Origin: Escherichia coli
GTDB lineage: Bacteria > Pseudomonadota > Gammaproteobacteria > Enterobacterales > Enterobacteriaceae
NCBI RefSeq assembly: GCF_030013205.1
Contig: NZ_CP122648.1
Reading direction: 5' to 3' (one strand)
DNA: 64,000 nucleotides
Shown one piece after another: positions 44,537 through 63,373 of the stretch (the stretch's first letter is position 1; the number at the start of each line of letters is the position of its first letter). The notes beneath the pieces are model-generated. The model was not told the origin of the DNA. It saw only the letters and a list, made by a program, of their open reading frames with translations, and did no database searches. Made by a program: the position numbers and the translations under genes.

Positions 44537-44657
44537 TTGATCATTGCTACCGATCGGACCACCTTAACACCCGGTCAGTATATAGACTATTTTTTACGCG
44601 CCGGAAGTCACCATTACCCCCCTTCCGGCCCTTGCCAGACGGCACAAAGGATGCGCT

Positions 44658-47600
44658 ATGACTCATCAGACACACACCATTGCTGAATCCAATAACTTTA
44701 TCGTTCTTGATAAGTACATCAAAGCTGAGCCAACAGGCGACAGCTACCAGAGCGAATCGGACCTGGAACGTGAACTGATTCAGGACCTGCAAAATCAGGG
44801 TTATGAATTTATTTCCGTAAAATCACAGTCGGCAATGCTATCCAATGTTCGGGAACAGCTTCAGAGCCTCAATGGTGTGATGTTTAATGACAGCGAGTGG
44901 CGGCGCTTCACGGAGCAGTATCTGGACAACCCCAGCGATGGTATTCTGGATAAAACCCGTAAAATCCATATCGACTATATCTGCGACTTTATTTTTGACG
45001 ACGGGCGACTTGAGAACATCTATTTGATAGATAAAAAGAATCTCATGCGCAATAAGGTGCAGATTATCCAGCAGTTTGAACAGACGGGTTCTCATGCTAA
45101 CCGTTATGACGTCACGATCCTGGTTAATGGTTTACCGCTGGTGCAAATCGAACTAAAAAAACGCGGGGTGGCGATTCGTGAGGCTTTCAACCAGATACAT
45201 CGTTACAGTAAAGAGAGTTTTAACAGCGAAAATTCCCTGTTTAAGTATCTGCAACTGTTTGTCATTTCTAACGGCACCGATACCCGTTATTTTGCCAACA
45301 CGACAAAGCGCGATAAAAACAGTTTTGACTTCACCATGAATTGGGCGAAATCAGACAACACGCTGATTAAAGACCTCAAAGACTTTACCGCTACCTTTTT
45401 CCAGAAACATACTCTGCTGAATGTTCTGGTGAACTACAGCGTTTTTGACAGTAGTCAGACGCTACTGGTGATGCGACCGTACCAGATTGCCGCCACCGAG
45501 CGCATTCTGTGGAAAATTAAGAGTTCCTTTACAGCGAAGAACTGGTCAAAACCGGAAAGCGGTGGGTATATCTGGCACACTACCGGTTCTGGTAAAACCC
45601 TCACCAGCTTTAAAGCCGCGCGTCTGGCAACAGAGCTGGACTTTATTGATAAAGTCTTCTTTGTGGTCGACAGGAAAGACCTCGATTACCAGACCATGAA
45701 GGAATATCAGCGTTTTTCGCCAGACAGCGTCAACGGCTCGGAAAATACCGCAGGCCTTAAACGAAATCTGGATAAGGACGATAACAAAATTATCGTCACT
45801 ACTATTCAGAAACTCAATAACCTGATGAAAGCAGAAAGCGACCTGCCTGTATATAATCAGCAAGTGGTGTTTATATTTGATGAATGCCACCGCAGCCAGT
45901 TTGGAGAAGCGCAGAAAAACCTGAAGAAGAAATTCAAACGCTATTATCAGTTTGGTTTTACCGGCACCCCTATTTTCCCGGAAAACGCCTTAGGCTCAGA
46001 AACAACCGCCAGCGTATTTGGTCGTGAATTGCATTCGTATGTAATTACCGATGCGATTCGTGACGAAAAAGTGCTCAAATTCAAAGTGGACTACAACGAT
46101 GTGCGGCCACAGTTTAAGTCTTTAGAGACAGAAACTGACGAGAAAAAACTAAGTGCGGCTGAAAATCAGCAGGCGTTTCTTCATCCCATGCGTATTCAGG
46201 AAATCACGCAATATATTCTGAATAATTTCCGCCAGAAAACTCACCGTACCTTCCCTGGCTCAAAAGGTTTTAATGCTATGTTGGCAGTGAGCAGCGTGGA
46301 TGCCGCGAAAGCCTATTATGCGACGTTTAAACGGTTACAAGAAGAAGCCGCTAATAAATCGGCTACCTATAAACCGCTGCGTATTGCGACAATCTTCTCC
46401 TTTGCCGCCAATGAAGAACAAAATGCCATTGGTGAAATTTCCGATGAAACTTTTGATACCAGCGCAATGGACAGCAGTGCTAAAGAGTTTCTGGACGCTG
46501 CAATTCGTGAATATAACAGCCATTTTAAAACTAACTTTAGCACCGACAGTAACGGTTTTCAGAACTACTATCGTGATTTAGCCCAGCGGGTTAAAAATCA
46601 GGATATCGATCTGCTAATTGTCGTGGGGATGTTTTTAACCGGCTTCGATGCTCCAACATTGAACACGCTATTCGTCGATAAAAACTTGCGTTTTCACGGC
46701 CTGATGCAGGCATTTTCCCGCACCAACCGTATTTATGATGCAACTAAAACCTTCGGTAATATCGTCACTTTCCGGGATCTGGAACGCTCAACTATTGATG
46801 CCATAACGCTGTTTGGTGATAAAAACACCAAAAATGTGGTGTTAGAAAAGAGTTATGCTGAGTATATGGAAGGCTTTACTGATGCTGCTACTGGTGAAGC
46901 TAAACGCGGCTTCATGACAGTAGTTTCAGAACTGGAACAACGGTTCCCTGACCCTGCCAGTATTGAAAGTGAAAAAGAGAAGAAAGACTTCGTTAAACTG
47001 TTTGGCGAATACCTGCGTGCCGAGAACATCCTGCAAAACTATGATGAATTTGCCACGCTAAAAGCCCTGCAACAAATCGATCTTAGCGATCCTGTTGCGG
47101 TAGAAAAATTCAAAGCAGAACATTATGTGGATGATGAAAAGTTCGCTGAATTGCAAACAATTCGTCTCCCTGCTGATCGCAAGATTCAGGATTATCGTTC
47201 TGCCTATAACGATATTCGCGACTGGCAGCGCCGTGAGAAAGAAGCTGAGAAAAAAGAGAAATCAACCACTGACTGGGATGACGTAGTTTTTGAGGTCGAT
47301 TTGCTGAAGTCTCAGGAAATAAACCTGGATTATATCCTTGGACTGATTTTCGAACACAACAGACAAAATAAAGGCAAGGGCGAAATGATCGAAGAGGTCA
47401 AACGCTTAATTCGTTCAAGCCTGGGGAACCGTGCTAAAGAGGGCCTGGTGGTCGATTTTATTCAGCAAACGAACCTGGATGATTTACCGGACAAAGCCAG
47501 CATCATTGACGCATTCTTTACGTTTGCTCAACGCGAACAGCAACGTGAAGCAGAAGCCTTGATCAAAGAAGAAAATCTCAATGAAGAGGCGGCGAAACGC

Positions 47601-47774
47601 TATATTCGCACATCTTTAAAACGCGAATACGCCACCGAAAATGGCACGGAATTAAACGAGACACTGCCCAGACTCAGTCCTTTAAATCCGCAATATAAAA
47701 CGAAAAAACAGACTGTTTTTCAAAAAATTAGCGCATTTATTGAAAAATTTAAGGGGGTGGGTGGAAAGATTTAG
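44658..47774 (+). CDS. hsdR: Type I restriction enzyme endonuclease/translocase subunit HsdR
   Basis: 1,038 aa; Walker A TGSGKT and DEAD-box variant FDECHRSQ; good ribosome-binding site; follows hsdMS. Confidence 0.9.
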
Positions 47775-48970
<1,196 letters not shown>

Positions 48971-49163
48971 CTAAGATAATTGGTTTTTAGCGAGTGACGG
49001 GCTAGGTTGTGTCAGTCTGTCTCATGTCGATATTACGGGGATGATGCAAACCTGAATGCTGCGATATTGGCGTGTCAGGGGAGGCATCTTACGGTATCAT
49101 TTACCGCAATTTTTAAGATGCAATGCCCTGCATCGCAGGCTTTTCTTCAGACCAGGATGATTC

Positions 49164-50216
49164 ATGAACGACAAAATCAGTCAGGACACGATCAACAAAG
49201 CCCTGTGGGCCGCGTGTGATACGTTCCGTGGCACCATCAGTGCTGATACCTATAAAGACTTTATCCTTACCATGCTGTTCCTTAAGTACATTTCGGATGT
49301 CTGGCAGGATCATTACGATGAATATAAAAAACAGTATGGTGATGCACCAGAACTCATTGAAGCCATGATGGCGAATGAACGTTTCGTATTGCCGAAAAGC
49401 GCCAGTTTCTATGCGCTGTATGAACGTCGTCATGAACCGGGCAATGGTGAGCGCATCGACCAGGCTCTGCATGCGATTGAAGAAGCTAATGGCACCAAAC
49501 TGAAAGACGCCGGGAAAAGCGTGTTCCAGGATATTTCGTTTAACACCGATCGCCTAGGTGAAGAAAAACAGAAGAACACCATCCTGCGTCAGCTGCTGGA
49601 AGACTTTGCCGGTCAAGATCTTAACCTGAAGCCGAGCCGTGTCGGTACGCTGGACGTTATCGGTAATGCCTACGAATATCTGATCAAAAACTTTGCTGCC
49701 AGCGGTGGGCAGAAAGCCGGGGAATTCTATACCCCACCAGAAGTTTCGGACCTGATTGCAGAACTGCTCGATCCGCAACCGGGTGATACCATCTGCGATC
49801 CAGCCTGTGGTTCCGGTTCATTATTGATGAAGTGTGGGCGTAAAATTGTCTCCGGGCATGATAGTCGTAACTATGCATTGTTCGGTCAGGAAGCGATCGG
49901 TTCTGCGTGGTCGCTGGCGAAAATGAATATGTTCCTGCACGGGGAAGACAACCATAAAATCGAGTGGGGCGATACCATTCGTAACCCGAAGCTGCTCGAT
50001 AAAAATGGCGACCTGATGCTGTTTGATATCGTGACCGCTAACCCACCGTTCAGCCTCGATAAGTGGGGCCATGACGAGGCCGAGAACGATAAGTTTGGCC
50101 GTTTTCGTCGCGGTGTACCGCCGAAGACTAAAGGAGGTATGGGATGCCTGCGCCAATATGGAGCGCTATATCCAGTACGGCTTTACCCCGCAAGAGCGCC
50201 ACCGTCTGTTTGGTGA
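49164..50216 (+). pseudogene. hsdM: Second type I restriction-modification methyltransferase hsdM, 3'-truncated (homology ends near 50,130; 3' tail of ORF is out-of-context)
   Basis: HsdM N-domain, DPACGSGSLL and NPPFS motifs present, but ORF ends ...[13 protein letters not shown] then unrelated tail; no hsdS follows. Confidence 0.7.
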
Positions 50217-51471
50217 GAGCGACTGGGGTCAGTTTGTGCCCCGTGATTTTGCCCATCTGCTTGATCTGCTAGGATCCCCAAACACGGCCGACGCTGCCGA
50301 TAAAAGCCGTGCAGCTGCCGGTAGCCAAGGGCGCACCTTGTTGGCCATTTTGCAGGATGACAAGCTTGATGGTGAGCAGACGGTGGAGGAGGAGAGCGCA
50401 GGCTCCGAGCGCTTTAACAGCGTCATCAACTTCTCCAACTTCTTGCTCCATGTGCTGCGACTCGTGAGCCGCGACCCGGGTGATACGGAGGGGGTGCCGC
50501 TTGATGATAAACAACTGGTCGATCAGTTTGAGCTGCGAGTGATAAGGCAACCGGATCCAGTAGCGGCAGTTCAGCGTTTTATCTATGGCCTGTTAAAGAG
50601 CAAGTATCTGTTTGATCAGTTCATCATCAAGCGCGAGTTTGCCGATGGCAAGGATAGTTGGAGTTTGAAGCGGCTGCACAGGTATTCGGAAAAGAGCGTC
50701 AGTTACATCAATACCTTTGACAAGGATGAAAATGAGAATGGTTTCTCTGGTGTTAACCGGCGGGTCCTGATGTTGCTGTCGGCGTTTCATGTGTCGACCC
50801 CGACCCTGGTTTACAAACATTGGCTGAATGGTGCACTGAGATATCTGTTCGACAATTGTCACCCTGATCAACCGGTGGATGCCGGGGCTTATCTGTCCTA
50901 TCTGGAGAGTCAGGCTCGCCGCTTTGTCTTCCAGCGCTTTTTGGCGCCTGGTGAAGGGGCTTCCTATTACCAGATGCTCTACCTTGATAACGCCCTGTTG
51001 CCCGCCATCAATGTGGATGAGAGTTGGCACAAGGTGATTACATCCAAACTTCGCTTCGGTCATATCGAGAACAACTTTGTCTTCAACTTCCTCGACTATC
51101 TGCTGTGGGTACGAGATCGGAATAGCGACAAAGTTGCTGGCTCCTTTGAGTTCACTTTCCGCAGCTCGGTGGAGCACTTCTCACCCCAGCATCCGATGGA
51201 TGGCTATAAACCGGTTGAGCAGAGTGCACTCCATTCGTTTGGCAACCTTTGCCTTATCAGCCACAGCAAGAACTCGCGCTTGAGTAACTTCCAGCCGCAA
51301 CAGAAGCAGGAGCACTTTGAAGCAAGCCTTGCCAATAACCAGACTGATAGTCTTAAATTGCTTGCTATGATTCGGCTGATGAAAGATAAAGGTCGTTGGC
51401 TGGAAGATGAGATAGCTGTGCATCAACAAGATATGTTGCAGGTCTTACTATCCAATCAAATTCAGCAATAA
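50158..51471 (+). pseudogene. GmrSD-like type IV restriction enzyme, C-terminal DUF1524 (His-Me finger) portion; 5' DUF262 part missing
   Basis: C-terminal ...[15 protein letters not shown]...[16 protein letters not shown] resembles the DUF1524 motif; no DGQQR DUF262 motif; upstream in-frame sequence is hsdM DNA read in another frame. Could alternatively be expressed from ATG 50158. Confidence 0.5.
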
Positions 51472-51657
51472 CGGATTGAATCTGTTTATGAAATTTGGCT
51501 GCTATCAACTAATGGGCGTTAAGTTGATTGTATGATCTGATTGATAAAGAAGGGGAGACTAAAAATCTCCTCTTCTTTGCAGCAGTTTACTGCGGTCTTT
51601 TTGTGATGCATCAGCATAAAACGTTTTACTTGTGGACCCTAAGAAATGGAGAACATT

Positions 51658-54600
51658 ATGTCGACTGTAGATACCTCTATAGCAGAGGAACTCAATCAAG
51701 GAGGCTCAGATTTTATTCTGACTTCCCTCGAGGCTATGCGTAAGAAGTTATTGGACCTTACGTCTCGAAATCGACTTTTGAATTTCCCTATCACTCAAAA
51801 AGGGTCTTCACTACGTATTGTTGATGAATTACCAGAACAGCTTTATGAAACCCTTTGCTCGGAAATCCCGATGGAATTTGCTCCTGTGCCCGATCCAACT
51901 AGAGCGCAGCTGTTAGAGCATGGCTATCTCAAAGTTGGGCCAGATGGTAAAGATATACAGTTAAGAGCTCATCCTAGCGCTAAGGATTGGGCGCACGTCT
52001 TAGGAATCCGTACAGATTTTGATTTACCAGATAGCCATAAAACGGTTGTTTCTGATTCAGATAGAGAGTTGCTGGAAAAAGCCCATCAGTTTATCTTGCA
52101 ATATGCCCAAGGCCAGAATGGAAAATTAACAGGGATTCGTTCTGAATACGTTAATCAAGGTATAGCTTTGTCAGCGTTGAAGGAGGCGTGCTGCTTAGCA
52201 GGCTATGAAGGGCTTGAGGATTTTGAACGACAGGCAAAGGCTGGGAATGAGATTAGTATATCTTCTTCCAATCCCTCTCATGACGATAATCGGATACAGG
52301 CTCTGCTTTATCCAAATGAACTGGAAGCTTGTTTGCGCGCCATCTATGGTAAGGCTCAAACTGCTTTGGAGGAGAGTGGCGCCAACATCTTGTATTTGGC
52401 GTTAGGGTTCCTTGAGTGGTATGAAAGCGATTCCTCTGAAAAGGCACGTTATGCACCGTTATTTACAATTCCGGTGAGATGTGAACGAGGAAAATTAGAT
52501 CCGAAGGATGGTCTTTACAAGTTTCAACTTTATTACACGGGTGAAGATATTTTGCCCAATCTCTCTTTGAAGGAAAAACTTCAGGCTGACTTTGGCCTCG
52601 CTCTTCCTTTGTTCAATGAAGAGGAAACTCCAGAGTCTTATTTTGCTTCGGTGAAGAAGGTTGTAGAGCAGCACAAACCTAAATGGTCTGTGAAACGTTA
52701 TGGTGCACTTAGCTTGCTCAATTTTGGCAAGATGATGATGTATCTTGACCTCGATCCTGCCCGCTGGCCTTGTGACAAGCGCAATATATTGTCTCATGAA
52801 GTAATTCGTCGCTTTTTCACCAGTCAGAGCTGTGGTCAAGAGAATTCCGGCTTACCTGGTGGCTTCGGTCAGCATGAGTACTGCATCGATAGTTACCCTG
52901 ATATTCATGACAAGGTTCCACTAATCGATGATGCGGATAGCTCGCAGCACAGTGCGTTGATCGATGCTATCCGTGGTCAAAACTTAGTCATTGAGGGCCC
53001 TCCTGGTAGTGGCAAATCACAAACGATCACCAACTTGATTGCAGCAGCTCTGCTCAACGGTAAGAAAGTCCTGTTTGTGGCAGAGAAGATGGCTGCACTG
53101 GAGGTCGTCAAACGTCGCTTGGATCGTGCGGGGCTAGGTCAATTTTGCTTAGAGTTGCACAGTCATAAAACTCATAAGCGCAAGGTGCTGGATGATATTA
53201 ATGCTCGCTTGGTGAGTCAGGCGACCATGCCTACTATGGAAGAGATTGATGCTCAGATTTTGCGTTATGAAGATCTTAAGCAGCAGCTCAATGAATATGC
53301 CGCATTGATCAATAACCAATGGGCGCAAACAGGCAAAACGATCCATCAGATTTTGAGTGGTGCAACCCGTTATCGTCACAAATTAGATATTGATGCAACA
53401 GCACTTCATATCGAAAACCTTTCCGGGAAGCAGTTGGATAAAGTGACCCAATTACGGCTGCGTGACCAAATAGTAGAGTTTAGCCGCATCTACAAAGAGG
53501 TTCGTGAGCAGGTGGGGGCTAATGCAGAAATATATGAGCACCCTTGGAGCGGTGTGAATAACACACAAATTCAATTGTTTGACAGCGCTCGTATAGTCGA
53601 TTTGCTACAAACTTGGCAGACATCAATTATCGACTTTCAACATAGCTATCAAGAATATGTAGATAAGTGGGCGTTAGAAGGCGAAAGCCTTAATACGCTT
53701 CAATATATTGAGCAATTGGTAGAAGATCAGTCGAATCTTCCAGTGTTGTGTGGTTCAGAGCATTTCCCAGCACTTAGTGAGCTAGATTCACCCGATGCCA
53801 TTGCACGGGTGCGTCACTATTTAGATAGGTTCGAGTTGCTACAAGGTCATTATGTGGCCTTGAGCCAGGTTATCGAGCCTCAAAAGCTACGACTTTTAGA
53901 ACAAGGACAATCGTGTGACTTTCCTCGTGAAGAGCTGGAAAAATATGGTGCAGCAGAGGATTTCACTTTACGTGATTTGGTCAGGTGGCTTGAATCCATC
54001 CAATCAATTCATGATGAGTTATCATCTATTTATGCGCAATTAAACGATTTCAAAAATGCTTTGCCAGATGGTATTGCTTCGTATATCGATGATTCGCAAG
54101 CTGGATTGCTATTCTGCTCTGAGTTGTTGTCGATTCTGGGTGCTTTACCGACTGAGCTTATTAGAGTTCGAGATCCTCTTTTTGATGATGATGATATCGA
54201 TGCAGTATTGCGCGACTTAATGTGTCAAATCGAAACATTGCGTCCTTTAAGAGATGGTCTATCTACTTTGTATCAATTGGACCAGTTGCCTTCCCAAGAG
54301 ATGCTCGCGCATGCCGTTGCTGTTATCCAGCAAGGGGGATTATTTGCATGGTTTAAGAGTGATTGGCGTAGTGCCAAGGCACTGCTCATGGCGCAATCTC
54401 GTAAGCCCGACACTAAGTTTGCTGAGTTAAAACGCTGCTCAGCTGATTTGCTCAAGTATTCGGAGCTGTTACAACGGTTTGAACAAAGTGACTTTGGTAA
54501 TCAACTTGGTAATGCATTCCGAGGGTTGGACACCGACTGTGAACAACTCATGTTATTGCGTGATTGGTACAAGAAGGTCCGAGCTTGTTACGGGATAGGT

Positions 54601-57393
54601 TTTGGAAAGCGAGTTGCGATAGGCTCTGGATTATTTAACCTAGATGGTGAGATTATCAAAGGTGTGCATTTAATCGAGAAATCGCAGATTAGCTCAAGAT
54701 TAATGACTTTGGTTAAACGGGTCGAGCACGAGGCTAAGTTATTACCGCGTATTTCTAGCTTGTTGGAAGAACATGCATCTTGGTTAGGTGAGCAAGGTGT
54801 ATTGATGCAATCTTACCGACAGGTGCGGAATACTCTCATTGCCTTGCAGGGATGGTTTATCAATCCAGATATATCATTAGAGCAGATGACTCATTCCTCC
54901 GAGATTTTGCAAAACATAAACGATCTTCAGATATCCCTTGAAAATGACTCGTTACAGTTAGGGGCGTTTTTACAATTAACCCCATTGGCTTGCGGTGCGT
55001 ATAAAAATAATCAACTGACGTTAGACACTATTAACGACACGCTGAATTTTGCCGAGCAACTGGTTGATAAGATAAATTGCGTATCCTTGGCTACCCAGAT
55101 CAGACATTTGGCTAGTGGTAGTGATTACGATTTACTATGTCGTGATGGTGGGGAAATAGTTTCGAAATGGAATGAACAGATTAAAAATGCTGAGTTATAT
55201 GCGCTAGAAACAAAGTTAGAGCGGAGTCAGTGGCTCAAGTCGACTGATGGTTCTCTTAATACATTAATCGAGCGCAACGAAAGAGCAATACAGCAACCCC
55301 GTTGGTTGAACGGGTGGGTTAACTTTATTCGTTGTTACGAGCAGATGGATGAAAACGGATTGCAGCGAATCTGGAGTGCTGTACTTGCGGGCTCGCTCCC
55401 GATTGAAAAAGTTGAATTGGGTTTAGCATTAGCAATTCATGACCAGCTGGCGCGGGAGGTTATTCACATCCACCCTGAATTGATGAGAGTTTCCGGCTCA
55501 CAGCGCAATGCTTTGCAGAAGTCATTTAAAGATTACGACAAAAAACTGATTGAATTACAACGTCAGCGGATTGCAGCAAAAATTGCTTGCCGAAATATAC
55601 CAGAAGGGAATTCTGGTGGTAAGAAAAGCGAATATACAGAACTAGCTTTGATCAAAAATGAGTTGGGTAAAAAAACCAGACATATTCCAATTAGACAATT
55701 GGTTAACCGTGCATGTAATGCGCTGGTTGCAATTAAACCTTGTTTCATGATGGGGCCAATGTCAGCAGCTCATTACCTAGAACCTGGACGAATGGAATTT
55801 GATCTGGTGGTGATGGACGAAGCGTCTCAGGTGAAGCCAGAGGATGCATTGGGTGTCATCGCGAGGGGCAAGCAACTAGTGGTCGTTGGTGACCCGAAAC
55901 AGCTACCACCAACCAGTTTCTTTGATCGAAGTGCCGACGGAGAAGATGACGATGATGCCGCGGCTTTAAGTGATACTGACAGCATTTTGGATGCTGCTTT
56001 GCCACTGTTTCCTATGAGACGTTTGCGTTGGCACTATCGTTCACGACATGAAAAGTTGATTGCATACTCTAACCGCCATTTTTATAACAGTGATTTGGTG
56101 ATATTCCCTTCCCCAAATGCTGAGTCTCCAGAGTATGGGATTAAATTTACCTATGTGTCAAAAGGTCGGTTCTCCAATCAACACAATATTGAAGAAGCCC
56201 AAGCAGTTGCTGAGGCCGTACTTCATCATGCGCAACACCGGCCGGGTGAGTCACTCGGGGTAGTGGCCATGAGTTCCAAGCAACGCGATCAAATTGAGCG
56301 CGCTATCGATGAATTGCGCCGAAATCGCCCTGAATTTAACGATGCAATCGATGGCTTATATGCCATGGAAGAGCCACTTTTTGTGAAAAACCTTGAGAAC
56401 GTTCAAGGGGATGAGCGTGATGTAATCTTTATTTCCTTTACCTATGGACCTTCTGAGCATGGTGGAAAGGTTTATCAACGCTTTGGACCTATCAATTCCG
56501 ATGTTGGCTGGCGTCGCTTGAATGTGCTTTTCACTCGATCAAAAAAACGGATGCATGTGTTTAGTTCAATGCGTTCTGAAGATGTATTGACGAGTGAAAC
56601 CAGTAAACTTGGTGTTATTTCGTTGAAAGGTTTTTTACAGTTTGCCGAAAGTGGCAAACTAGATTCCCTCACAACGCATACCGGCAGGGCTCCAGATAGT
56701 GACTTTGAGGTTGCTGTAATGGAAGCACTCAATCACGCTGGGTTTGAGTGTGAACCTCAGGTAGGGGTTGCAGGATTCTTTATTGATCTAGCTGTGAAAG
56801 ATCCAGGTTGTCCTGGCCGTTACTTAATGGGCATAGAGTGTGATGGTGCGGCTTATCACTCAGCTAAATCTGCTCGTGATCGTGACCGTTTGCGTCAAGA
56901 GGTTCTGGAGCGTTTGGGTTGGAGAATTAGCCGCATTTGGTCCACTGATTGGTTCAGTAATCCTGATGAGGTTCTATCTCCGATTATCCGTAAACTCCAT
57001 GAGCTTAAAACATTGGCTCCAGACGTTGTTGTACCTTCCTATGAATATGTAGAAACGATTGAGTCAAGCGCTGAAGTGGCGTCTGACTCAATTGATTCTC
57101 TTATGCCCAATTTGGGGCTTAAGGAGCAACTTAAGTATTTTGCCACACATGTCATTGAGGTTGAGCTTCCTAATGTTGATGCTGATCGTCGTTTGTTGCG
57201 GCCCGCAATGCTTGAGGCTTTGCTGGAACATCAGCCTTTATCACGTTCCGAGTTTGTTGAACGAATACCTCATTATCTGCGGCAAGCAACAGATGTATAC
57301 GAAGCGCAACGCTTTCTTGACCGAGTCTTGGCATTAATTGATGGCGCAGAGGCTGAAGCGAATGATGCAGCGTTTGAGTCTGAATTGGCATAA
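51658..57393 (+). CDS. Giant DUF4011-type SF1 (Upf1-like) helicase with C-terminal Vsr/DUF559-like endonuclease domain (Hhe-like architecture); candidate defence protein
   Basis: DUF4011-like signatures (LLDLTSRNRLLNF, ILYLALGFLEW), Walker A GPPGSGKS (52996-53019), motif II VVMDEASQ (55807-55830), motifs V/VI QGDERDVIFIS...RRLNVLFTRSKKRM, then GFFIDLAVKD...IECDGAAYHS...RDRDRLRQEVLERLGWRISRIW Vsr-like fold; ATG 51658 has GGAG 6 nt upstream (alternative ATG 51646). Confidence 0.85.
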   Translation: MSTVDTSIAEELNQGGSDFILTSLEAMRKKLLDLTSRNRLLNFPITQKGSSLRIVDELPEQLYETLCSEIPMEFAPVPDPTRAQLLEHGYLKVGPDGKDIQLRAHPSAKDWAHVLGIRTDFDLPDSHKTVVSDSDRELLEKAHQFILQYAQGQNGKLTGIRSEYVNQGIALSALKEACCLAGYEGLEDFERQAKAGNEISISSSNPSHDDNRIQALLYPNELEACLRAIYGKAQTALEESGANILYLALGFLEWYESDSSEKARYAPLFTIPVRCERGKLDPKDGLYKFQLYYTGEDILPNLSLKEKLQADFGLALPLFNEEETPESYFASVKKVVEQHKPKWSVKRYGALSLLNFGKMMMYLDLDPARWPCDKRNILSHEVIRRFFTSQSCGQENSGLPGGFGQHEYCIDSYPDIHDKVPLIDDADSSQHSALIDAIRGQNLVIEGPPGSGKSQTITNLIAAALLNGKKVLFVAEKMAALEVVKRRLDRAGLGQFCLELHSHKTHKRKVLDDINARLVSQATMPTMEEIDAQILRYEDLKQQLNEYAALINNQWAQTGKTIHQILSGATRYRHKLDIDATALHIENLSGKQLDKVTQLRLRDQIVEFSRIYKEVREQVGANAEIYEHPWSGVNNTQIQLFDSARIVDLLQTWQTSIIDFQHSYQEYVDKWALEGESLNTLQYIEQLVEDQSNLPVLCGSEHFPALSELDSPDAIARVRHYLDRFELLQGHYVALSQVIEPQKLRLLEQGQSCDFPREELEKYGAAEDFTLRDLVRWLESIQSIHDELSSIYAQLNDFKNALPDGIASYIDDSQAGLLFCSELLSILGALPTELIRVRDPLFDDDDIDAVLRDLMCQIETLRPLRDGLSTLYQLDQLPSQEMLAHAVAVIQQGGLFAWFKSDWRSAKALLMAQSRKPDTKFAELKRCSADLLKYSELLQRFEQSDFGNQLGNAFRGLDTDCEQLMLLRDWYKKVRACYGIGFGKRVAIGSGLFNLDGEIIKGVHLIEKSQISSRLMTLVKRVEHEAKLLPRISSLLEEHASWLGEQGVLMQSYRQVRNTLIALQGWFINPDISLEQMTHSSEILQNINDLQISLENDSLQLGAFLQLTPLACGAYKNNQLTLDTINDTLNFAEQLVDKINCVSLATQIRHLASGSDYDLLCRDGGEIVSKWNEQIKNAELYALETKLERSQWLKSTDGSLNTLIERNERAIQQPRWLNGWVNFIRCYEQMDENGLQRIWSAVLAGSLPIEKVELGLALAIHDQLAREVIHIHPELMRVSGSQRNALQKSFKDYDKKLIELQRQRIAAKIACRNIPEGNSGGKKSEYTELALIKNELGKKTRHIPIRQLVNRACNALVAIKPCFMMGPMSAAHYLEPGRMEFDLVVMDEASQVKPEDALGVIARGKQLVVVGDPKQLPPTSFFDRSADGEDDDDAAALSDTDSILDAALPLFPMRRLRWHYRSRHEKLIAYSNRHFYNSDLVIFPSPNAESPEYGIKFTYVSKGRFSNQHNIEEAQAVAEAVLHHAQHRPGESLGVVAMSSKQRDQIERAIDELRRNRPEFNDAIDGLYAMEEPLFVKNLENVQGDERDVIFISFTYGPSEHGGKVYQRFGPINSDVGWRRLNVLFTRSKKRMHVFSSMRSEDVLTSETSKLGVISLKGFLQFAESGKLDSLTTHTGRAPDSDFEVAVMEALNHAGFECEPQVGVAGFFIDLAVKDPGCPGRYLMGIECDGAAYHSAKSARDRDRLRQEVLERLGWRISRIWSTDWFSNPDEVLSPIIRKLHELKTLAPDVVVPSYEYVETIESSAEVASDSIDSLMPNLGLKEQLKYFATHVIEVELPNVDADRRLLRPAMLEALLEHQPLSRSEFVERIPHYLRQATDVYEAQRFLDRVLALIDGAEAEANDAAFESELA

Positions 57394-57415
57394 TTAGTTA
57401 AAGGTAATAAGAACA

Positions 57416-57586
57416 GTGACAACTGTCGGACAACGTGAACGCGCAACTCAACAGCGCGTAATCAGGTTTTTTATTGAGGAATTGGGCTATCGTTATCTAG
57501 GCGATTGGCACAAGCGTCCTAACAACCGTAATGTTGAGCCTGATTTGCTCAGTCATTGGTTGATTGACCGTGGTGTTGTGGACTGA
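57416..57586 (+). pseudogene. Small ORF with HsdR-N-like motif, 22 nt downstream of the giant gene; terminated at the IS3-family element boundary
   Basis: GTG start; VTTVGQRERATQQRVIRFFIEELGYRYLGDWHK... ; stop TGA coincides with first bases of the IS; possible continuation at 62297-62484. Confidence 0.35.
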
Positions 57587-57613
57587 CCCCACGCCCGTAG
57601 ACAAATTCTGTCC

Positions 57614-58061
57614 TCACGACGAGGCCTGTTCGAAGGCCTCCGGACTGACGCCGCCGAGGTGACTGTGGCGCCGGGCCCGGTTGTAGAACACTTCAATGTA
57701 ATCGAAGATATCCGCCCGGGCTAGATCCCGGGTTTTGTATATTCTCTTCCTGATGCGCTCTTTTTTCAGTGAACTGAAGAACGATTCGGCCACCGCATTA
57801 TCCCAGCAGTTGCCACGCCGGCTCATGCTCGGGACCAGGTTATTAGCCCGGCAGAAGTGCTGCCAGTCGTCACTGCCGTACTGGCTTCCCTGGTCTGAGT
57901 GCACGATGACCTCGCCGTCGGGTTTACGTCGCCAGACCGCCATCATCAGTGCATCCAGCGCCAGTTCGCGTGAGAGAGTGGGCTTCATCGACCAGCCCAC
58001 CACGTTACGGGCGAAGAGATCGATAACCACCGCCAGATACAGCCAGCCCTGCCAGGTGCGG
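57614..58061 (-). pseudogene. IS3-family transposase OrfB, C-terminal exon (downstream of intron)
   Basis: ...[26 protein letters not shown]...DDE integrase core...NRARRHSHLGGVSPEAFE. Confidence 0.7.
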
Positions 58062-60332
58062 AGTAGAGTAAGAGGCAGGGCGTAGTCGGACTATTTCCCT
58101 GCCTCTCCTCCCCGAACCGGACGTGCACCTTTCAGCGCATCCGGCTCTCCATTTAAATGCTGGCGAACGCCATTGCCACTTCTGTAAAGCGCGATGTATA
58201 CGTGTTTCTGGTCTCCGTCCTCAGATAGGGATTACCTTCGGGTAGCCGCCAGCGGAACAGCTTCTTGCCTTGCCCCACCAACCGGTACAGTATTTCGCCG
58301 CTGAGCTTGCCGTGATTGGTTTTACCAAATAAAACCCACGTTTTGCTCTGACCCGGTTTCGGTGATTTACACCACCACCTCATCAGGGAAGCGATACCTG
58401 TACGGTATTTGTGGGCCAGCCAGTGAGCCAGCTTCCAGAACACGACACGGTCGATATAACTGAAGACTTTGGCCTTAAAATCAACGAACTGATAGAACAT
58501 GGCCCAGCCTTTCAGTTTTCGGTTGAGTTGTTCAGCCATATCGACTTTGCTTTCACTGTAGTTGCCTGATAACAGTGCTGTCAGCGATGCGGCGAAGTTT
58601 CTGGCTTTCTCCTGCGGGATCGTTGAGACCACTCGCATCTCGCCATAACGACTGCGTTTGCGAATGATCCTGTGCCCCAGAAAGATAAAGCCGTCATTAA
58701 CATGGGTGATTTTAGTCTTATCCATGTTCAGCCTGAGTTTCAGACTGCCTTTGAGCACACCCCGACACTCCTCCCTGATGGCTTCCGCCTGTGCTTTGGT
58801 GCCTTTGACGATGAGGACAAAATCATCGGCATAGCGGCAGTACGCCACCGCGGGTTTCCACTGCCAGTTTTCTCTGACCGCCGTACTTCGGCCCCGTTGG
58901 ATACTGTTATTCCAGTACCACCGATCTTTTCTGGCTTTCCCGCTCAGGTAGCGCTCATGCAGGTATTGATCGAACTCATTCAGCATGATGTTCGATAATA
59001 GCGGCGATATAACACCGCCCTGTGGCACACCTTCACTGGCCGCCCGAAAGAGACCGACATCGATATGTCCCGCCTTGATGGTTTTCCACAGCAGAGTCAT
59101 GAAACGTGCGTCACTGATCCTGCGGCGTACAGCCTTCATCAGCAGTCGATGATGTACGGTGTCGAAGTAACTGGACAGGTCGCCTTCAATCACCCAGCGT
59201 CCCCGGGTTTCACCACAGTCTGTGAGCTGTAATTTCACCGTGCGGATCGCGTGGTGGACACTGCGCTCAGGCCGGAAGCCATATGAGAGCGTATGAAAAT
59301 CACTCTCCCATATCGGCTCCATCGCCATCAGCATGGCCCGCTGAACAATACGATCCCGCAACGCGGGGATACCCAGTGGTCGCAGTTTGCCGTTGCTTTT
59401 AGGGATGTAAACCCGTCTGGCGGGCAAGGGCTGGTAGTGGCCTGAGAGTAATTCATCCCTGAGGATTTGCAGCTCAACAGCCAGTCTGGCCTGTAGCATT
59501 GTTTTGTTCACGCCATCAACGCCGGGGGTATGGGCCCCCTTTGATGAAAGCGTGATCCGCGCCGCTTCAGCCAGCCATTCTGGTTGTGTTATCAGACGCA
59601 GCAGCCGTTGAATCCGTAGGGACGGATCGGTGGCTGCCCATGTGGCAAGCTTGCGTTGCATTTCGCTGATTATCAAAGGTCTTCACCTCGTTAGGTCAGT
59701 TAATTCACGTCGTAAACACATTCAAACTGCTTCCCTTCGCCATGTAATGGGCTTTCCCCATCGCGGACTACTACGGAAGCTCCGCCAGCCAGCGCGTCAT
59801 CGGAGCCATGCCCCCTTAACATCCGTCGCTGACCTTCCCCGGTTTACCTGCCTGGACTCAGGCATACTGAGGAGGCTGCCCGTCGCACTCTTTATCCTTG
59901 CTTGCCGCAAGTTGGCAGAAGTCAGCAACGCAAGCGTGATAGACGCTGCTGCCCCGGTGTTTCGCATACATGTCAAAACACCTTCGACCGGCAGTGCTTA
60001 CGTATCACTGCCAGTTCCTCCTGCACGGCCTGTCAGATCACGTAGGCCGTGGTGACGTTTTCAACCCACAGAGGCGGATTAACGGGTTCATGTTCTTCAG
60101 CCTTTCAGTACTTAACCTTGAGGATCATCTCGGCTTAGTGATCTCGCCTCAATCCCCGTTGTCAGCGGGTTACATCACCTTGCGGGCATGCCGCAGGTCA
60201 CTGCCGCTCAGGTTCTCCACCGTCACACCCGGTGGGATTGTTGGGTTTCTCATCGTGAGTTACCGGTTCAATATTCCAGACAGATTCGCGGTTCATTTAA
60301 GCATCCATGCCCGCCCTGAACTCCGGGCACAC
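58062..60332 (-). mobile_element. Bacterial group II intron (about 2.27 kb) inserted in IS3-family orfB
   Basis: 5' end GUGUG at the exon junction (minus strand), 3' end ...CUAC; domain V-like hairpin GAGCCGGATGCGCTGAAAGGTGCACGTCCGGTTC near 58100-58135; reverse-transcriptase ORF in domain IV. Confidence 0.75.
58153..59676 (-). CDS. Group II intron-encoded reverse transcriptase/maturase
   Basis: 507 aa; reverse-transcriptase motifs including YADD (YCRYADDFVLIV); maturase X-like C-terminus. Confidence 0.85.
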   Translation of the reverse strand: MIISEMQRKLATWAATDPSLRIQRLLRLITQPEWLAEAARITLSSKGAHTPGVDGVNKTMLQARLAVELQILRDELLSGHYQPLPARRVYIPKSNGKLRPLGIPALRDRIVQRAMLMAMEPIWESDFHTLSYGFRPERSVHHAIRTVKLQLTDCGETRGRWVIEGDLSSYFDTVHHRLLMKAVRRRISDARFMTLLWKTIKAGHIDVGLFRAASEGVPQGGVISPLLSNIMLNEFDQYLHERYLSGKARKDRWYWNNSIQRGRSTAVRENWQWKPAVAYCRYADDFVLIVKGTKAQAEAIREECRGVLKGSLKLRLNMDKTKITHVNDGFIFLGHRIIRKRSRYGEMRVVSTIPQEKARNFAASLTALLSGNYSESKVDMAEQLNRKLKGWAMFYQFVDFKAKVFSYIDRVVFWKLAHWLAHKYRTGIASLMRWWCKSPKPGQSKTWVLFGKTNHGKLSGEILYRLVGQGKKLFRWRLPEGNPYLRTETRNTYTSRFTEVAMAFASI

Positions 60333-60693
60333 TATAGGTCACATCACCGCACCACACCTGATTTGGCTCGGTCACGGCGAACTGCCGTTCAAGGTAGTTA
60401 GGGATAGCAACGTGCTCATGACCGCCACGCTTATACCGGTGAGTCGGCTGCTGGCAACTGACCAGTCCCAGCTCTTTCATGAGTCTGCCAGCAAGCCAGC
60501 GCCCCATCTGGTAGCCTCTCCGGGTTGCCATTGTGGCGATGCTTCTTGCTCCGGCAGAGCCGTGGCTGATGCCATGCAGTTCAAGTACCTGGCTGCGTAA
60601 TACAGCCCGTCTGCCGTCTGGCTTTTCAGGACGGTTTTTCCAGTATTTGTAGCTGCTGCGATGGACCCCGAACACATGGCAGAGAGTGGCCAC
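60333..60693 (-). pseudogene. IS3-family transposase OrfB, N-terminal exon (upstream of intron)
   Basis: ...[14 protein letters not shown] then intron; IS911-like. Confidence 0.7.
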
Positions 60694-60761
60694 AGGATAA
60701 CGCGCCCTGAGTTTCCCGATTATCGAGAACTGTTCAGGGAGTCTGACATCAAGAGCGCGGT

Positions 60762-61982
60762 TGTAGATTCAATTGGTCAACGCAACAGTTATGTGAAAAC
60801 ATGGGGTTGCGGAGTTTTTTTGAATGAGACGAACATTTACAGCAGAGGAAAAAGCCTCTGTTTTTGAACTATGGAAGAACGGAACAGGCTTCAGTGAAAT
60901 AGCGAATATCCTGGGTTCAAAACCCGGAACGATCTTCACTATGTTAAGGGATACTGGCGGCATAAAACCCCATGAGCGTAAGCGGGCTGTAGCTCACCTG
61001 ACACTGTCTGAGCGCGAGGAGATACGAGCTGGTTTGTCAGCCAAAATGAGCATTCGTGCGATAGCTACTGCGCTGAATCGCAGTCCTTCGACGATCTCAC
61101 GTGAAGTTCAGCGTAATCGGGGCAGACGCTATTACAAAGCTGTTGATGCTAATAACCGAGCCAACAGAATGGCGAAAAGGCCAAAACCGTGCTTACTGGA
61201 TCAAAATTTGCCATTGCGAAAGCTTGTTCTGGAAAAGCTGGAGATGAAATGGTCTCCAGAGCAAATATCAGGATGGTTAAGGCGAACAAAACCACGTCAA
61301 AAAACGCTGCGAATATCACCTGAGACAATTTATAAAACGCTGTACTTTCGTAGCCGTGAAGCGCTACACCACCTGAATATACAGCATCTGCGACGGTCGC
61401 ATAGCCTTCGCCATGGCAGGCGTCATACCCGCAAAGGCGAAAGAGGTACGATTAACATAGTGAACGGAACACCAATTCACGAACGCTCCCGAAATATCGA
61501 TAACAGACGCTCTCTGGGGCATTGGGAGGGCGATTTAGTCTCAGGTACAAAAAACTCTCATATAGCCACACTTGTAGACCGAAAATCACGTTATACGATC
61601 ATCCTTAGACTCAGGGGCAAAGATTCTGTCTCAGTAAATCAGGCTCTTACCGACAAATTCCTGAGTTTACCGTCAGAACTCAGAAAATCACTGACATGGG
61701 ACAGAGGAATGGAACTGGCCAGACATCTAGAATTTACTGTCAGCACCGGCGTTAAAGTTTACTTCTGCGATCCTCAGAGTCCTTGGCAGCGGGGAACAAA
61801 TGAGAACACAAATGGGCTAATTCGGCAGTACTTTCCTAAAAAGACATGTCTTGCCCAATATACTCAACATGAACTAGATCTGGTTGCTGCTCAGCTAAAC
61901 AACAGACCGAGAAAGACACTGAAGTTCAAAACACCGAAAGAGATAATTGAAAGGGGTGTTGCATTGACAGATTGAATCTACA
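60762..61982 (+). mobile_element. IS30 (1,221 bp) inserted into orfA of the IS3-family element
   Basis: Terminal inverted repeats TGTAGATTCAATTGGTCAACGCAACAG and ...ATTGAATCTACA; exact IS30 length. Confidence 0.85.
60824..61975 (+). CDS. insI: IS30 transposase
   Basis: 383 aa MRRTFTAEEKASVFELWKNGTGFSEIANILG... with DDE motif. Confidence 0.9.
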   Translation: MRRTFTAEEKASVFELWKNGTGFSEIANILGSKPGTIFTMLRDTGGIKPHERKRAVAHLTLSEREEIRAGLSAKMSIRAIATALNRSPSTISREVQRNRGRRYYKAVDANNRANRMAKRPKPCLLDQNLPLRKLVLEKLEMKWSPEQISGWLRRTKPRQKTLRISPETIYKTLYFRSREALHHLNIQHLRRSHSLRHGRRHTRKGERGTINIVNGTPIHERSRNIDNRRSLGHWEGDLVSGTKNSHIATLVDRKSRYTIILRLRGKDSVSVNQALTDKFLSLPSELRKSLTWDRGMELARHLEFTVSTGVKVYFCDPQSPWQRGTNENTNGLIRQYFPKKTCLAQYTQHELDLVAAQLNNRPRKTLKFKTPKEIIERGVALTD

Positions 61983-62239
61983 GCGGCTTTTTTTAATATG
62001 TCCCGTTCGTCGGTAACCCGTTTCAGCTCTTTCTGGAGACGGCGGATCTCGGCCTGAGCATCTGACTGTTCTTTATTAGTGGAAGAATCCGGACCGTACT
62101 TCTTTATCCAGGCATAAAGGCTGTGGGTGGTGATATCGAGACGTGTTGCAACGCTGGCAACAGAATAACCACGATCAACAACCTGTTTGACTGCTTCAGT
62201 TTTAAACTCTTCGGGATAACGCTTACCGCTCATGGGCAC
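61983..62239 (-). pseudogene. IS3-family transposase OrfA, interrupted near its 3' end by IS30
   Basis: MSGKRYPEEFKTEAVKQVVDRGYSVASVATRL (HTH)...DILKKAA then IS30; the remaining orfA codons ([13 protein letters not shown]) lie at 60723-60761. Confidence 0.7.
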
Positions 62240-62927
62240 CTCTCTTTAAGCCATCTTAAATGACTCTGAGGTGTCTGTTAAACCCGTGGCGATTCACGTA
62301 TCGCATTGGGCAAACTAAAGATGTGTATGTCTATTACCCAACTGTGAGAGATACTGAAATTACAACATTTGAAGAAACTCTGGATAACCTCCTACAACGC
62401 CGACGAGCATTGGCCAGAGATATGCTCTGCGCTACTCCCGATTTGAACTGTGCGGATTTTGAGACCATTTTGAAGGGAGCCTAACCGATATGAGCGGCAA
62501 TACTGCCAGTTGCCAAACCTGAAATAACACTTAGCTGTGATGATTCGCTATTACCTACCGATAGCTTCGGAAAACATAAATTAAAAATGCCCAGGGGAGT
62601 ACTATTATCGTTAGCATTACCCGAACGCCGTATTAACGGTTATTTATTGGTAAGTGCTACGTTCCATGGCAAGAGTTCATCAACACGGTTAGCCGACAGT
62701 ATATTGAGTATATGGCGCAGATATGCTTGCGGATTGATACCATTCAGACAGCAGGTCCCGCTCAGCCCGTACAGTAGAGCGCCGTTCACTACCGTAATCA
62801 CTGCCGAAAAACACATTGATTGCCCCTCAATAATCCTGCCGTCAACGTCAAAATTGCTGGTCGGGCTCGACTTATTTAATTGTGTAAACAGGGCCTCTCA
62901 GCGAAGGCCCTTATGCATCACCTGATG

Positions 62928-63359
62928 TTAAAAGTCACTACATCCAAGATGACGTTCAATGGCACCATGCGATTCAATGTAAGCCTGGGCCGTCTGTTCC
63001 AGTACACCAGGCTCAGCGTTGTATGTGTTAGCTGCATCAAATACCAACGACAACACTTCGGGATACACAACCAGATGTGTAACGGAGTTATCTTCATCCA
63101 ATACTTTTCCCCACGCCTGCTCAATTAGATTTCTGAGAACCACCACCTCACGACTCTTACACCAGACATCGTTATTAAGTAGCAGCACCATAAGATAAGG
63201 AGTGGCATCGTTAGCCACAGCTTCCCTACTCCAGAGGTAATATAAAGGGGTGGGCTCGACTGATTTATCTTTACGTCGCTTACACTGCAAATGTTCAGAA
63301 ATTAGTCTATGCAGTTCACCAGTAAAATCAACCATCAGAGAAGGAATTGCCTTATTCAT
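62928..63359 (-). CDS. Hypothetical protein (143 aa) abutting the IS1 end
   Basis: ORF only; no recognisable motif; start 15 nt from IS1 terminal inverted repeat. Confidence 0.3.
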   Translation of the reverse strand: MNKAIPSLMVDFTGELHRLISEHLQCKRRKDKSVEPTPLYYLWSREAVANDATPYLMVLLLNNDVWCKSREVVVLRNLIEQAWGKVLDEDNSVTHLVVYPEVLSLVFDAANTYNAEPGVLEQTAQAYIESHGAIERHLGCSDF

Positions 63360-63373
63360 ACCAGGGCAATGTA

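What the first reader, a model, noticed from the sequence alone, without database searches (positions are those of the whole stretch)
62297..63373. About 1.1 kb of unassigned sequence between the IS3-family element and IS1
Overlapping ORFs lie on both strands and none has a motif I recognise. The minus-strand 143-codon ORF (62928-63359) is the most gene-like. Sandwiched between two IS elements, this is probably a remnant of further island cargo.
Basis: seen in the sequence. Interest (0 to 1): 0.3.

Follow-up and report, generated by a model that had tools for sequence, protein, structure and literature searches.

The report
Three gene remnants between insertion sequences
The 1.1 kb between the two insertion sequences is wreckage of three known genes: the last 62 codons of the phage-defence helicase gene zorD, a scrap of an IS66 transposase gene, and a beheaded island-backbone gene of the YagK/YfjJ family. 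It is ordinary genomic-island decay.

Summary
62297-63373 lies exactly between the terminal repeat of an IS3-family element (ends at 62296) and an IS1 (starts at 63374), and the 143-codon minus-strand ORF is there.

The stretch can be fully assigned to three remnants:
- **zorD tail, 62297-62484 (+).** These are the last 62 codons of type I Zorya zorD, 59 of 61 residues identical to an intact 1080-aa ZorD. No zorA, zorB, zorC or other zorD sequence is in the window.
- **IS66 scrap, about 62640-62816 (-).** This is a frameshifted C-terminal piece of an IS66-family transposase.
- **YagK/YfjJ-family ORF, 62928-63359 (-).** It equals codons 46-188 of a 188-aa protein found nearly full-length in about 794 of 5,426 complete E. 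coli genomes. IS1 sits 14 bp upstream of its ATG with a perfect 9-bp target duplication. In the identical strain K_EC180 the detached 5' part also carries a 1-bp frameshift, and the start Met is Ile in 4 of 7 intact alleles.

The ancestral order zorABCD, IS66 remnant, 188-aa gene, Gp2 gene survives in strain C5.

The ORF is a disrupted backbone gene.

One small new point: this 188-aa subfamily has a Rep-like predicted fold but lacks the HUH histidines.

Interest is low.

The parts
57579..62296 (-). Context: the IS3-family element that forms the left boundary. It is itself broken by a group II intron and by IS30 (60762-61982).
   Evidence: orfA at 61895-62239 and transposase fragments at 60268-60693 and 57614-58030. 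Rfam RF00029 at 58063-58149 and ltrA at 58153-59676. The left end was mapped at 57579 from junction hits. The flanks differ (hsdR' on the left, 'zorD on the right) and there is no target duplication: ttg versus cgt.
62297..62484 (+). 3' remnant of zorD (type I Zorya SNF2-type helicase/nuclease): the last 62 codons plus the stop. It begins with the 'YRIGQTK' stretch, which I recognise as helicase motif VI (own knowledge).
   Evidence: 59 of 61 aa identical to residues 1020-1080 of ZorD of E. coli C5. tblastn places ZorD residues 1019-1080 at 62296-62481 and finds nothing for ZorA, ZorB or ZorC. PADLOC gives ZorD 1.2e-24 and a DpdE-labelled model 6.5e-34; NCBIfam gives ZorD 0.0038. DNA homology to C5 starts exactly at the IS3 end.
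62485..62639 (.). Non-coding spacer that follows zorD in intact loci.
   Evidence: Collinear with the C5 sequence downstream of zorD, with only point differences and a 1-bp and a 3-bp indel. No Rfam match and no family match.
62640..62816 (-). C-terminal remnant of an IS66-family transposase gene, frameshifted. The bulk of the element is missing.
   Evidence: Pfam PF13817 (IS66 C-terminal element) at E 2.7e-10, 40.7 bits against a cut-off of 30. NCBIfam transpos_IS66 positions 360-385 of 387. RefSeq annotates it as a frameshifted partial transposase in K_EC180 and C5. Two reading frames carry the homology.
62890..62911 (-). GC-rich hairpin just after the stop codon of the YagK/YfjJ-like gene; possibly its terminator.
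   Evidence: An 8-bp stem GGGCCUUC/GAGGCCC. The 61-nt context folds at -16.8 kcal/mol, z -2.26. The U-tract is weak and the consensus terminator scan did not call it.
62928..63359 (-). The 143-codon ORF. It equals codons 46-188 of a 188-aa YagK/YfjJ-domain (Rep-like, HUH-less) island backbone gene, and is a 5'-truncated pseudogene fragment.
   Evidence: PF11726 at E 2.4e-10, covering only profile positions 27-135 of 170. 97% identical to C5 WP_063848193 residues 46-188. The start Met46 is Ile in 4 of 7 full-length alleles. The lost residues include helix 13-29 and strand 33-40 of the predicted fold.
63360..63373 (-). The last 14 nt of the same gene (codons about 41-45) up to the IS1 end. 63365-63373 (GGCAATGTA) is one copy of the IS1 target-site duplication.
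   Evidence: A perfect 9-bp direct repeat GGCAATGTA flanks the 659-bp IS1 in K_EC180, which has a single mismatch to the window over 54297-64000 (9,704 bp), at 60664, and none across this region.
63374..64000 (-). Context: the IS1 (IRR end at 63374) that interrupts the YagK/YfjJ-like gene. The window ends inside it.
   Evidence: The IS1 terminal repeat is at 63374. The element is 659 bp (internally deleted) in K_EC180 and RefSeq annotates it as a frameshifted IS1 transposase.

Best explanation
The 1,077 bp are a decayed backbone-to-cargo junction of a CP4-6/CP4-57-type integrative island at the serX tRNA locus. The ancestral arrangement is still intact in E. coli C5: zorA-zorB-zorC-zorD, then an old IS66 transposase scrap, then a 188-aa YagK/YfjJ paralogue, then a canonical Gp2/YagK-like Rep gene, and so on to the integrase. 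In the lineage of this window, two IS events cut that arrangement on both sides. On the left, an IS3-family element, through an IS-associated deletion or recombination rather than a simple insertion, removed zorABC and the first 1,018 codons of zorD. That joined the island to a different defence cargo (Hhe and a type I hsdR stub). On the right, an IS1 inserted into codons 41-44 of the 188-aa gene, and a 1-bp deletion at codon 40 adds a frameshift. Nothing here is expected to work. Sixty-two codons of ZorD lack the ATPase/nuclease core and its ZorAB partners. The IS66 scrap has no catalytic domain. The 143-codon ORF lacks its native start, its promoter side and the first helix and strand of its fold. 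Shown: the identity of each piece, the exact breakpoints, the target duplication, the frameshift, and the intact ancestral arrangement elsewhere. Inferred: the order of events and the lack of function.
For: - **Piece identities.** zorD tail; IS66 C-terminal element; YagK/YfjJ domain.
- **Intact arrangement elsewhere.** It is present in C5 with zorA1, zorB1, zorC and zorD annotated and collinear with the window from 62297 to 63373.
- **Left junction.** The IS3 element has different genes on its two flanks and no target duplication. The same composite IS3 has a different right flank in strain THO-010.
- **Right junction.** IS1 has a perfect 9-bp duplication, and the gene's first 39 codons lie beyond it. 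The 1-bp deletion is seen once IS1 is removed in silico.
- **Independent erosion.** zorD is cut at other positions by other IS elements in other strains.
- **Lineage restriction.** The exact IS3|zorD junction is in 17 genomes and the exact IS1|gene junction in 20 of 5,426; every listed genome with the identical region or junction is from swine, including ETEC and O139:H1 strains.
- **The intact gene is real.** Near-full-length copies (at least 80% of the gene) are in 794 genomes, and pairwise dN/dS among seven intact alleles is 0.11-0.36.
Against: - RefSeq (PGAP) annotates the 143-codon ORF as an intact CDS, WP_077881224.1.
- The ORF has no internal stops, and it lies downstream of IS1 on the same strand, so read-through transcription is conceivable.
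- No expression data were available.
- The frameshift and the detached 5' part lie outside the window. They are read from K_EC180, which shows a single mismatch (at 60664) to the window over the compared stretch 54297-64000, but upstream indels show it is probably not the same strain.
Confidence: 0.9

Rival explanations
1. The 143-codon ORF is a working, shortened YagK/YfjJ-domain protein. It would be transcribed by read-through from IS1, translated from Met46, and retain a DNA-binding or regulatory role for the island.
For: The ORF is open and PGAP calls it a CDS. IS1 lies on the same strand immediately upstream. Compared with intact alleles, the retained part shows dN/dS of 0.10-0.25, although that mostly reflects selection before disruption. 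The subfamily already lacks the catalytic HUH residues, so any role would be non-catalytic and might tolerate truncation.
Against: Forty-five N-terminal residues are lost, including helix 13-29 and strand 33-40, the first strand of the predicted sheet. Met46 is Ile in 4 of 7 intact alleles, so it is not a conserved start. No Shine-Dalgarno-like sequence precedes the ATG (TGCCCTGGTATG). No promoter-like site was found above chance. The neighbouring canonical Gp2 gene is also a pseudogene with an internal stop in this lineage, so the whole module is decaying. The configuration is confined to 20 genomes.
Confidence: 0.07
2. The stretch hides some other functional element: a small protein (the 112-codon plus-strand ORF at 62587-62925, or the 74-codon IS3::zorD chimeric ORF) or a non-coding RNA.
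For: These ORFs exist. A GC-rich hairpin lies at 62890-62911. The zorD-tail-plus-IS66 scar persists in many lineages.
Against: The 112-codon ORF has no Pfam, NCBIfam or PHROG match. It runs antisense to the IS66 remnant and is broken into 61- and 45-codon pieces by indels in C5. There is no Rfam match in 62297-63373 at E up to 1. Promoter-like sites are at or below the shuffle expectation: 2 against 2.6. The chimeric ORF owes its start codon to the IS3 terminal repeat and exists only in the 17 genomes with that junction.
Confidence: 0.03

Closest known systems
Type I Zorya anti-phage system, ZorD subunit (Doron et al. 2018, own knowledge; Hu et al. 2024, PMC11946911)
   Same: The first 188 bp encode the exact C-terminus of E. 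coli ZorD, 97% identical over residues 1020-1080. In other strains the same downstream DNA follows an intact zorABCD operon.
   Different: Only 62 of 1080 codons remain. No zorA, zorB, zorC or ZorD core is in the window. It is a remnant, not a system.
YagK/YfjJ family (Pfam PF11726, formerly Inovirus_Gp2/DUF3296): backbone genes of the CP4-6 and CP4-57 cryptic prophage-like islands of E. coli K-12
   Same: The domain match is above Pfam's threshold. The gene sits in the same island position as yagK in CP4-6, where the order is intF ... yagL (resolvase-like), then yagK. Gp2-like proteins are described as likely core genes of int-alpA islands that carry defence cargo (PMC12595487).
   Different: The 188-aa subfamily is only 17-27% identical to canonical members. 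It is nearly confined to E. coli: close relatives only, with a few labelled Klebsiella or Salmonella. It has PYL where the family has HYH/HIH, and AYIE where the family has YL(T/A)K. The window copy is additionally truncated.
HUH-superfamily rolling-circle replication initiators (parvovirus NS1, AAV Rep, SIRV1 ORF119, inovirus/microvirus G2P-type Rep)
IS66-family transposase (TnpC) and IS1
   Same: The C-terminal element of IS66 transposases is present. IS1 shows its terminal repeats and the characteristic 9-bp target duplication.
   Different: The IS66 piece is about 175 bp of a 1.5-kb gene and is frameshifted. The IS1 copy is 659 bp; the intact length of about 768 bp is from memory, and RefSeq marks the transposase as defective.

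Membership tests
Type I Zorya (ZorD) | Sequence homology to ZorD | tested here: met
   59 of 61 aa identical to the ZorD C-terminus. PADLOC ZorD 1.2e-24. The best PADLOC hit is a model labelled DpdE (6.5e-34) that matches at positions 1020-1079 of 1083, the same register as ZorD. The ZorD name rests on the intact homologue being flanked by zorA1, zorB1 and zorC.
Type I Zorya (ZorD) | Complete SNF2-type ATPase core and nuclease-active C-terminal domain (the DEAQ box at 730-731 is required; PMC11946911) | tested here: not met
   Only residues 1019-1080 are encoded; nothing else of ZorD is in the window.
Type I Zorya (ZorD) | Operon partners zorA, zorB and zorC | tested here: not met
   tblastn with C5 ZorA, ZorB and ZorC against the window and against 38 kb downstream in K_EC180 gives no hit.
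YagK/YfjJ (PF11726) | Domain match above Pfam's gathering score | tested here: met
   41 bits against 25.8 for the 143-aa ORF, and 45.5 bits for the intact 188-aa homologue.
YagK/YfjJ (PF11726) | Full-length domain (profile positions 1-170) | tested here: not met
   Only profile positions 27-135 align. The N-terminal 45 residues of the intact protein are cut off by IS1.
HUH endonuclease superfamily | HUH motif (two histidines on strand beta3) | tested here: not met
   PYL replaces HYH/HIH in the window ORF and in all intact alleles and cluster representatives examined.
HUH endonuclease superfamily | Catalytic tyrosine motif (Y-x-x-K on the C-terminal helix) | tested here: inconclusive
   A Tyr aligns (AYIES against DYLTK/DYLAK) but the Lys is lost, and this part of the model has pLDDT below 50.
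HUH endonuclease superfamily | HUH/Rep fold | tested here: inconclusive
IS66 family | DDE transposase domain and terminal repeats at both ends | tested here: not met
   Only the C-terminal element (PF13817) is present, in two frames; RefSeq marks it as partial and frameshifted.
IS1 | Terminal inverted repeats and a 9-bp target duplication | tested here: met
   IRR is at 63374. The other end and the duplicated GGCAATGTA were read in K_EC180, which has no mismatch to the window across this region.

The most novel reading that the evidence does not exclude
The intact 188-aa gene represents a catalytically dead (HUH-less) Rep-like paralogue, nearly confined to E. coli, that selection maintains (dN/dS about 0.25) exactly at the backbone-cargo boundary of CP4-6-type islands. 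It could act as a non-nicking origin-binding regulator or competitor of the neighbouring canonical Gp2/YagK Rep, for example controlling replication of the excised island or sensing phage or satellite Rep activity. In its strongest form, the truncated 143-aa version in this window would still be made from IS1 read-through and keep part of that role.
Probability: 0.08. Interest if true: 0.35.

Novelty: already known. Interest (0 to 1): 0.1.

Why it matters
It matters little as a discovery. Every piece belongs to a described family, and RefSeq already labels the three pieces as a partial hypothetical protein, a partial transposase and a YagK/YfjJ-domain protein.

The analysis adds three modest things:
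- **Loss of a defence system.** This lineage, represented in RefSeq by swine isolates (ETEC and O139:H1 strains), lost a type I Zorya system at this spot. The island now joins Hhe and type I R-M cargo there. This is a concrete example of IS-driven turnover of defence cargo at a fixed backbone junction.
- **An annotation correction.** The "intact" 143-aa CDS in RefSeq is better treated as a pseudogene fragment.
- **A side observation.** The 188-aa YagK/YfjJ paralogue subfamily has lost the HUH histidines. This may interest people working on these uncharacterised island backbone genes.

Tried and rejected
- **Rfam.** A permissive E-value scan of 57000-64000 hit only the group II intron inside the IS3 element, and nothing in 62297-63373.
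- **Promoter and terminator scan.** Counts were at or near the shuffle expectation.
- **Other ORFs.** The 112-, 82- and 41-codon ORFs had no Pfam hit, and the 112-codon ORF also had no NCBIfam or PHROG hit. The 112-codon ORF is not conserved in C5.
- **PADLOC on the YagK/YfjJ-like proteins.** No defence-system model matched, so a defence role for this gene was not pursued.
- **Word-indexed homologue search and exhaustive HMMER search with the intact 188-aa protein.** Both returned only near-identical proteins (mostly E. coli), fragments, and a handful of relatives at 28-36% identity that all keep HYH. No intermediate lineage was found.
- **Profile search against PDB sequences.** Nothing significant, so fold comparison was used instead.
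- **Simple IS3 insertion into zorD.** Considered and rejected, because the other IS3 flank is an hsdR stub, not zorD, and no target duplication exists.
- **Reading the zorD tail as DpdE.** Considered because of the top PADLOC hit, and rejected because the intact homologue is flanked by zorA, zorB and zorC.

Full report
**Observation**

The terminal inverted repeat of an IS3-family element ends at 62296 (...ggcgattca|cgt). The IS1 terminal repeat GGTAATGACTCCAACTTA begins at 63374. Between them lie short overlapping ORFs on both strands, the longest being the minus-strand 143-codon ORF at 62928-63359.

**What the pieces are**

A megablast of the 1,077 bp against 5,426 complete E. coli genomes found 16 genomes, all from swine, with 100% identity over the full length. 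It also found three strains (GN02350, C5, 52F4) in which the same DNA is collinear with an intact gene annotated zorD. In C5 the annotated order is zorA1, zorB1, zorC, zorD, a partial frameshifted IS66 transposase, a 188-aa YagK/YfjJ-domain protein, a 204-aa inovirus-Gp2-family protein, a DNA-binding (resolvase-like) protein, a helix-turn-helix regulator, and a tyrosine integrase. A pairwise DNA alignment shows that homology to C5 starts at the first base after the IS3 repeat and stops at the first base of IS1. The whole "unassigned" stretch is therefore a slice of that arrangement.

- **Piece 1, 62297-62484 (+).** The translation YRIGQTKDVYVYYPTVRDTEITTFEETLDNLLQRRRALARDMLCATPDLNCADFETILKGA is 59 of 61 residues identical to residues 1020-1080 of C5 ZorD.
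  - It matches PADLOC ZorD models (1.2e-24) and, more strongly, a model labelled DpdE in the same register (6.5e-34). It also weakly matches NCBIfam ZorD. I keep the ZorD name because the intact homologue sits in a zorABCD operon.
  - tblastn with ZorA, ZorB, ZorC and ZorD finds only these 62 codons in the window.
Its ATG lies inside the IS3 repeat and happens to be in frame with the zorD tail.
- **Piece 2, about 62640-62816 (-).** It matches the IS66 C-terminal element (PF13817, E 2.7e-10, above threshold) and the last positions of the NCBIfam IS66 transposase model. The homology is split over two frames. The scrap is also present, further decayed, in C5, so it predates the events that shaped this window.
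- **Piece 3, 62928-63359 (-).** This is the 143-codon ORF. It matches PF11726 (YagK/YfjJ C-terminal domain, formerly Inovirus_Gp2) at E 2.4e-10, but only over profile positions 27-135 of 170. It is 97% identical to residues 46-188 of the 188-aa C5 protein. The missing N-terminus of the C5 protein aligns with the N-terminus of canonical family members (HP+I...L motif), so the 188-aa form is the real full-length gene.

**How the gene was broken**

In K_EC180, which shows a single mismatch (at 60664) to the window over the compared stretch 54297-64000 (9,704 bp), the IS1 is 659 bp long. It is flanked by a perfect 9-bp direct repeat, GGCAATGTA, so it is a simple insertion. The first 39 codons of the gene lie just beyond the IS1, outside the window.

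Removing IS1 and one repeat copy in silico restores the gene except for a 1-bp deletion at codon 40 (TTTAAATTAATAC becomes TTTAAA-TAATAC). That deletion shifts the frame.

The ATG that opens the 143-codon ORF is codon 46. It is ATT (Ile) in four of seven intact alleles, so it is not a conserved start. No Shine-Dalgarno-like sequence precedes it.

**How zorD was broken**

The IS3-family element spans 57579-62296. It is itself split by a group II intron (Rfam RF00029 at 58063-58149; ltrA) and by IS30 (60762-61982). Its other flank is not zorD. It is the first roughly 55 codons of a type I restriction subunit R gene, downstream of the anti-phage gene hhe (PADLOC REase_I 1.4e-17).

The three bases on the two sides differ (ttg against cgt), so there is no target duplication. 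The same composite IS3 next to hhe has a different right-hand neighbour in strain THO-010. The IS3|zorD junction therefore arose by an IS-associated deletion or recombination that removed zorABC and 94% of zorD. This step is an inference.

**Distribution**

- The exact IS3|zorD junction is in 17 of 5,426 genomes, and the IS1|gene junction in 20. The twelve IS1-junction genomes listed are all from swine, including ETEC and O139:H1 strains.
- In other lineages the zorD tail is cut at other positions by other elements: 7 bp further in next to a partial transposase (STEC1589), 34 bp in next to an IS3-family element (YZMc17-1), 138 bp in next to an IS5 (NT1F25), and further upstream next to IS3 itself (14EC033).
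- This junction between island backbone and cargo is evidently eroded again and again.
- The island sits at the serX tRNA-Ser between ghrA and dgcT. NT1F25 carries the intact backbone at the same chromosomal locus.

**Is the intact gene real, and what kind of protein is it?**

Copies covering at least 80% of the gene occur in 794 genomes. Among seven intact alleles, pairwise dN/dS is 0.11-0.36, which indicates moderate purifying selection, though the counts are small.

The word-indexed and the exhaustive protein searches found only near-identical sequences (mostly E. coli), fragments, and a few relatives at 28-36% identity.

Alignments show that all canonical relatives, including K-12 YagK and the neighbouring 204-aa protein, carry HYH or HIH and a YL(T/A)K motif. 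The 188-aa subfamily has PYL and AYIE at those positions.

Canonical members weakly match Pfam REP_ORF2-G2P and a PHROG replication-initiation family. PF11726 is used as an inovirus/microvirus Rep model in PMC7000223.

My reading is that this is a Rep-like protein that has lost its metal-binding histidines, so any role of the intact form would be non-catalytic. This is an inference and concerns the intact gene, not the fragment in the window. Gp2-like proteins have been listed as likely core genes of int-alpA islands that carry defence cargo (PMC12595487).

**Function of the window's sequence**

None is expected.

[quoted passage not shown] None of that is present here.
- The IS66 scrap has no catalytic domain.
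- The 143-codon ORF lacks helix 13-29 and strand 33-40 of its fold and its native start.
- The adjacent canonical Gp2 gene is also a pseudogene in this lineage.

**Rivals**

- **The ORF still works.** It could still be expressed by read-through from IS1, which is on the same strand. RefSeq does call it a CDS. I give this 0.07.
- **A hidden element.** A small protein or RNA is unlikely. There are no Rfam hits. The 112-codon plus-strand ORF has no family match and is broken by indels in C5. Promoter-like sites do not exceed chance. A GC-rich hairpin just after the gene's stop codon (62890-62911, -16.8 kcal/mol in context, z -2.3) may be its old terminator.

**Verdict**

The finding is real but ordinary. 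It is three recognisable gene remnants at an IS-eroded backbone-cargo junction of a serX defence island. Novelty is "already known" and interest is low (0.1). The loss of the HUH motif in the 188-aa subfamily is a minor side observation.

Noticed in passing
window 57579-62296: The IS3-family element is a nested composite. A group II intron (RF00029 at 58063-58149; ltrA at 58153-59676) and an IS30 (60762-61982, 1,221 bp) are both inserted into it. The same composite sits next to hhe in the unrelated strain THO-010, with a different right flank.
   Followed up: partly
window 57416-57578 (+): The first roughly 55 codons of a type I restriction subunit R gene (PADLOC REase_I 1.4e-17) lie directly after hhe and are cut off by the IS3 end. 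This hsdR'|IS3 junction is present in several hundred E. coli genomes.
   Followed up: partly
window 63374-64000, continuing in L002 9078-9736: The IS1 copy is only 659 bp; an intact IS1 is about 768 bp (from memory, not measured here). RefSeq annotates its transposase as frameshifted with an internal stop, so it is a dead copy.
   Followed up: partly
window 62260-62484 (+): A chimeric 74-codon ORF starts at an ATG inside the IS3 terminal repeat and runs in frame into the zorD tail. No family match beyond the ZorD part and no promoter-like site upstream.
   Followed up: yes
window 37416-57393: The island begins at the serX tRNA-Ser (37416-37502). It carries a CbtA/CbeA toxin-antitoxin pair, an antirestriction gene, a truncated ESPR-type autotransporter, a complete type I R-M system (hsdM, hsdS, hsdR at 41736-47774), ISKpn26 (47922-48902), a second partial hsdM (from 49164) and the 1,915-aa anti-phage gene hhe (51646-57393). 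This is a stacked defence island.
   Followed up: no
L001 12629-13195 and alleles in L007, L009-L013: The intact 188-aa YagK/YfjJ paralogue subfamily has PYL instead of the HUH histidines (HYH) and AYIE instead of YLxK in every allele seen. It nonetheless shows dN/dS of about 0.1-0.36 and is nearly confined to E. coli. It looks like a catalytically dead Rep-like protein kept next to a canonical one.
   Followed up: partly
L004 1084-2739 (K_EC180, just beyond the window): Beyond the IS1 the island backbone continues with a Gp2-family pseudogene (internal stop), a fragment of a TOTE-system primase-domain gene and another Gp2-type gene. The integrase lies at the dgcT end, far from serX, which suggests tandem or rearranged islands.
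   Followed up: no
window versus L003 (K_EC180), for example flgF at 508-1263 versus 515-1270: Coordinates drift by a few bases between the window and K_EC180 in the core-genome part. mdoC is annotated as frameshifted in K_EC180 but is an open 385-codon ORF in the window (26126-27283). The window is therefore from a close relative, not from K_EC180 itself.
   Followed up: no
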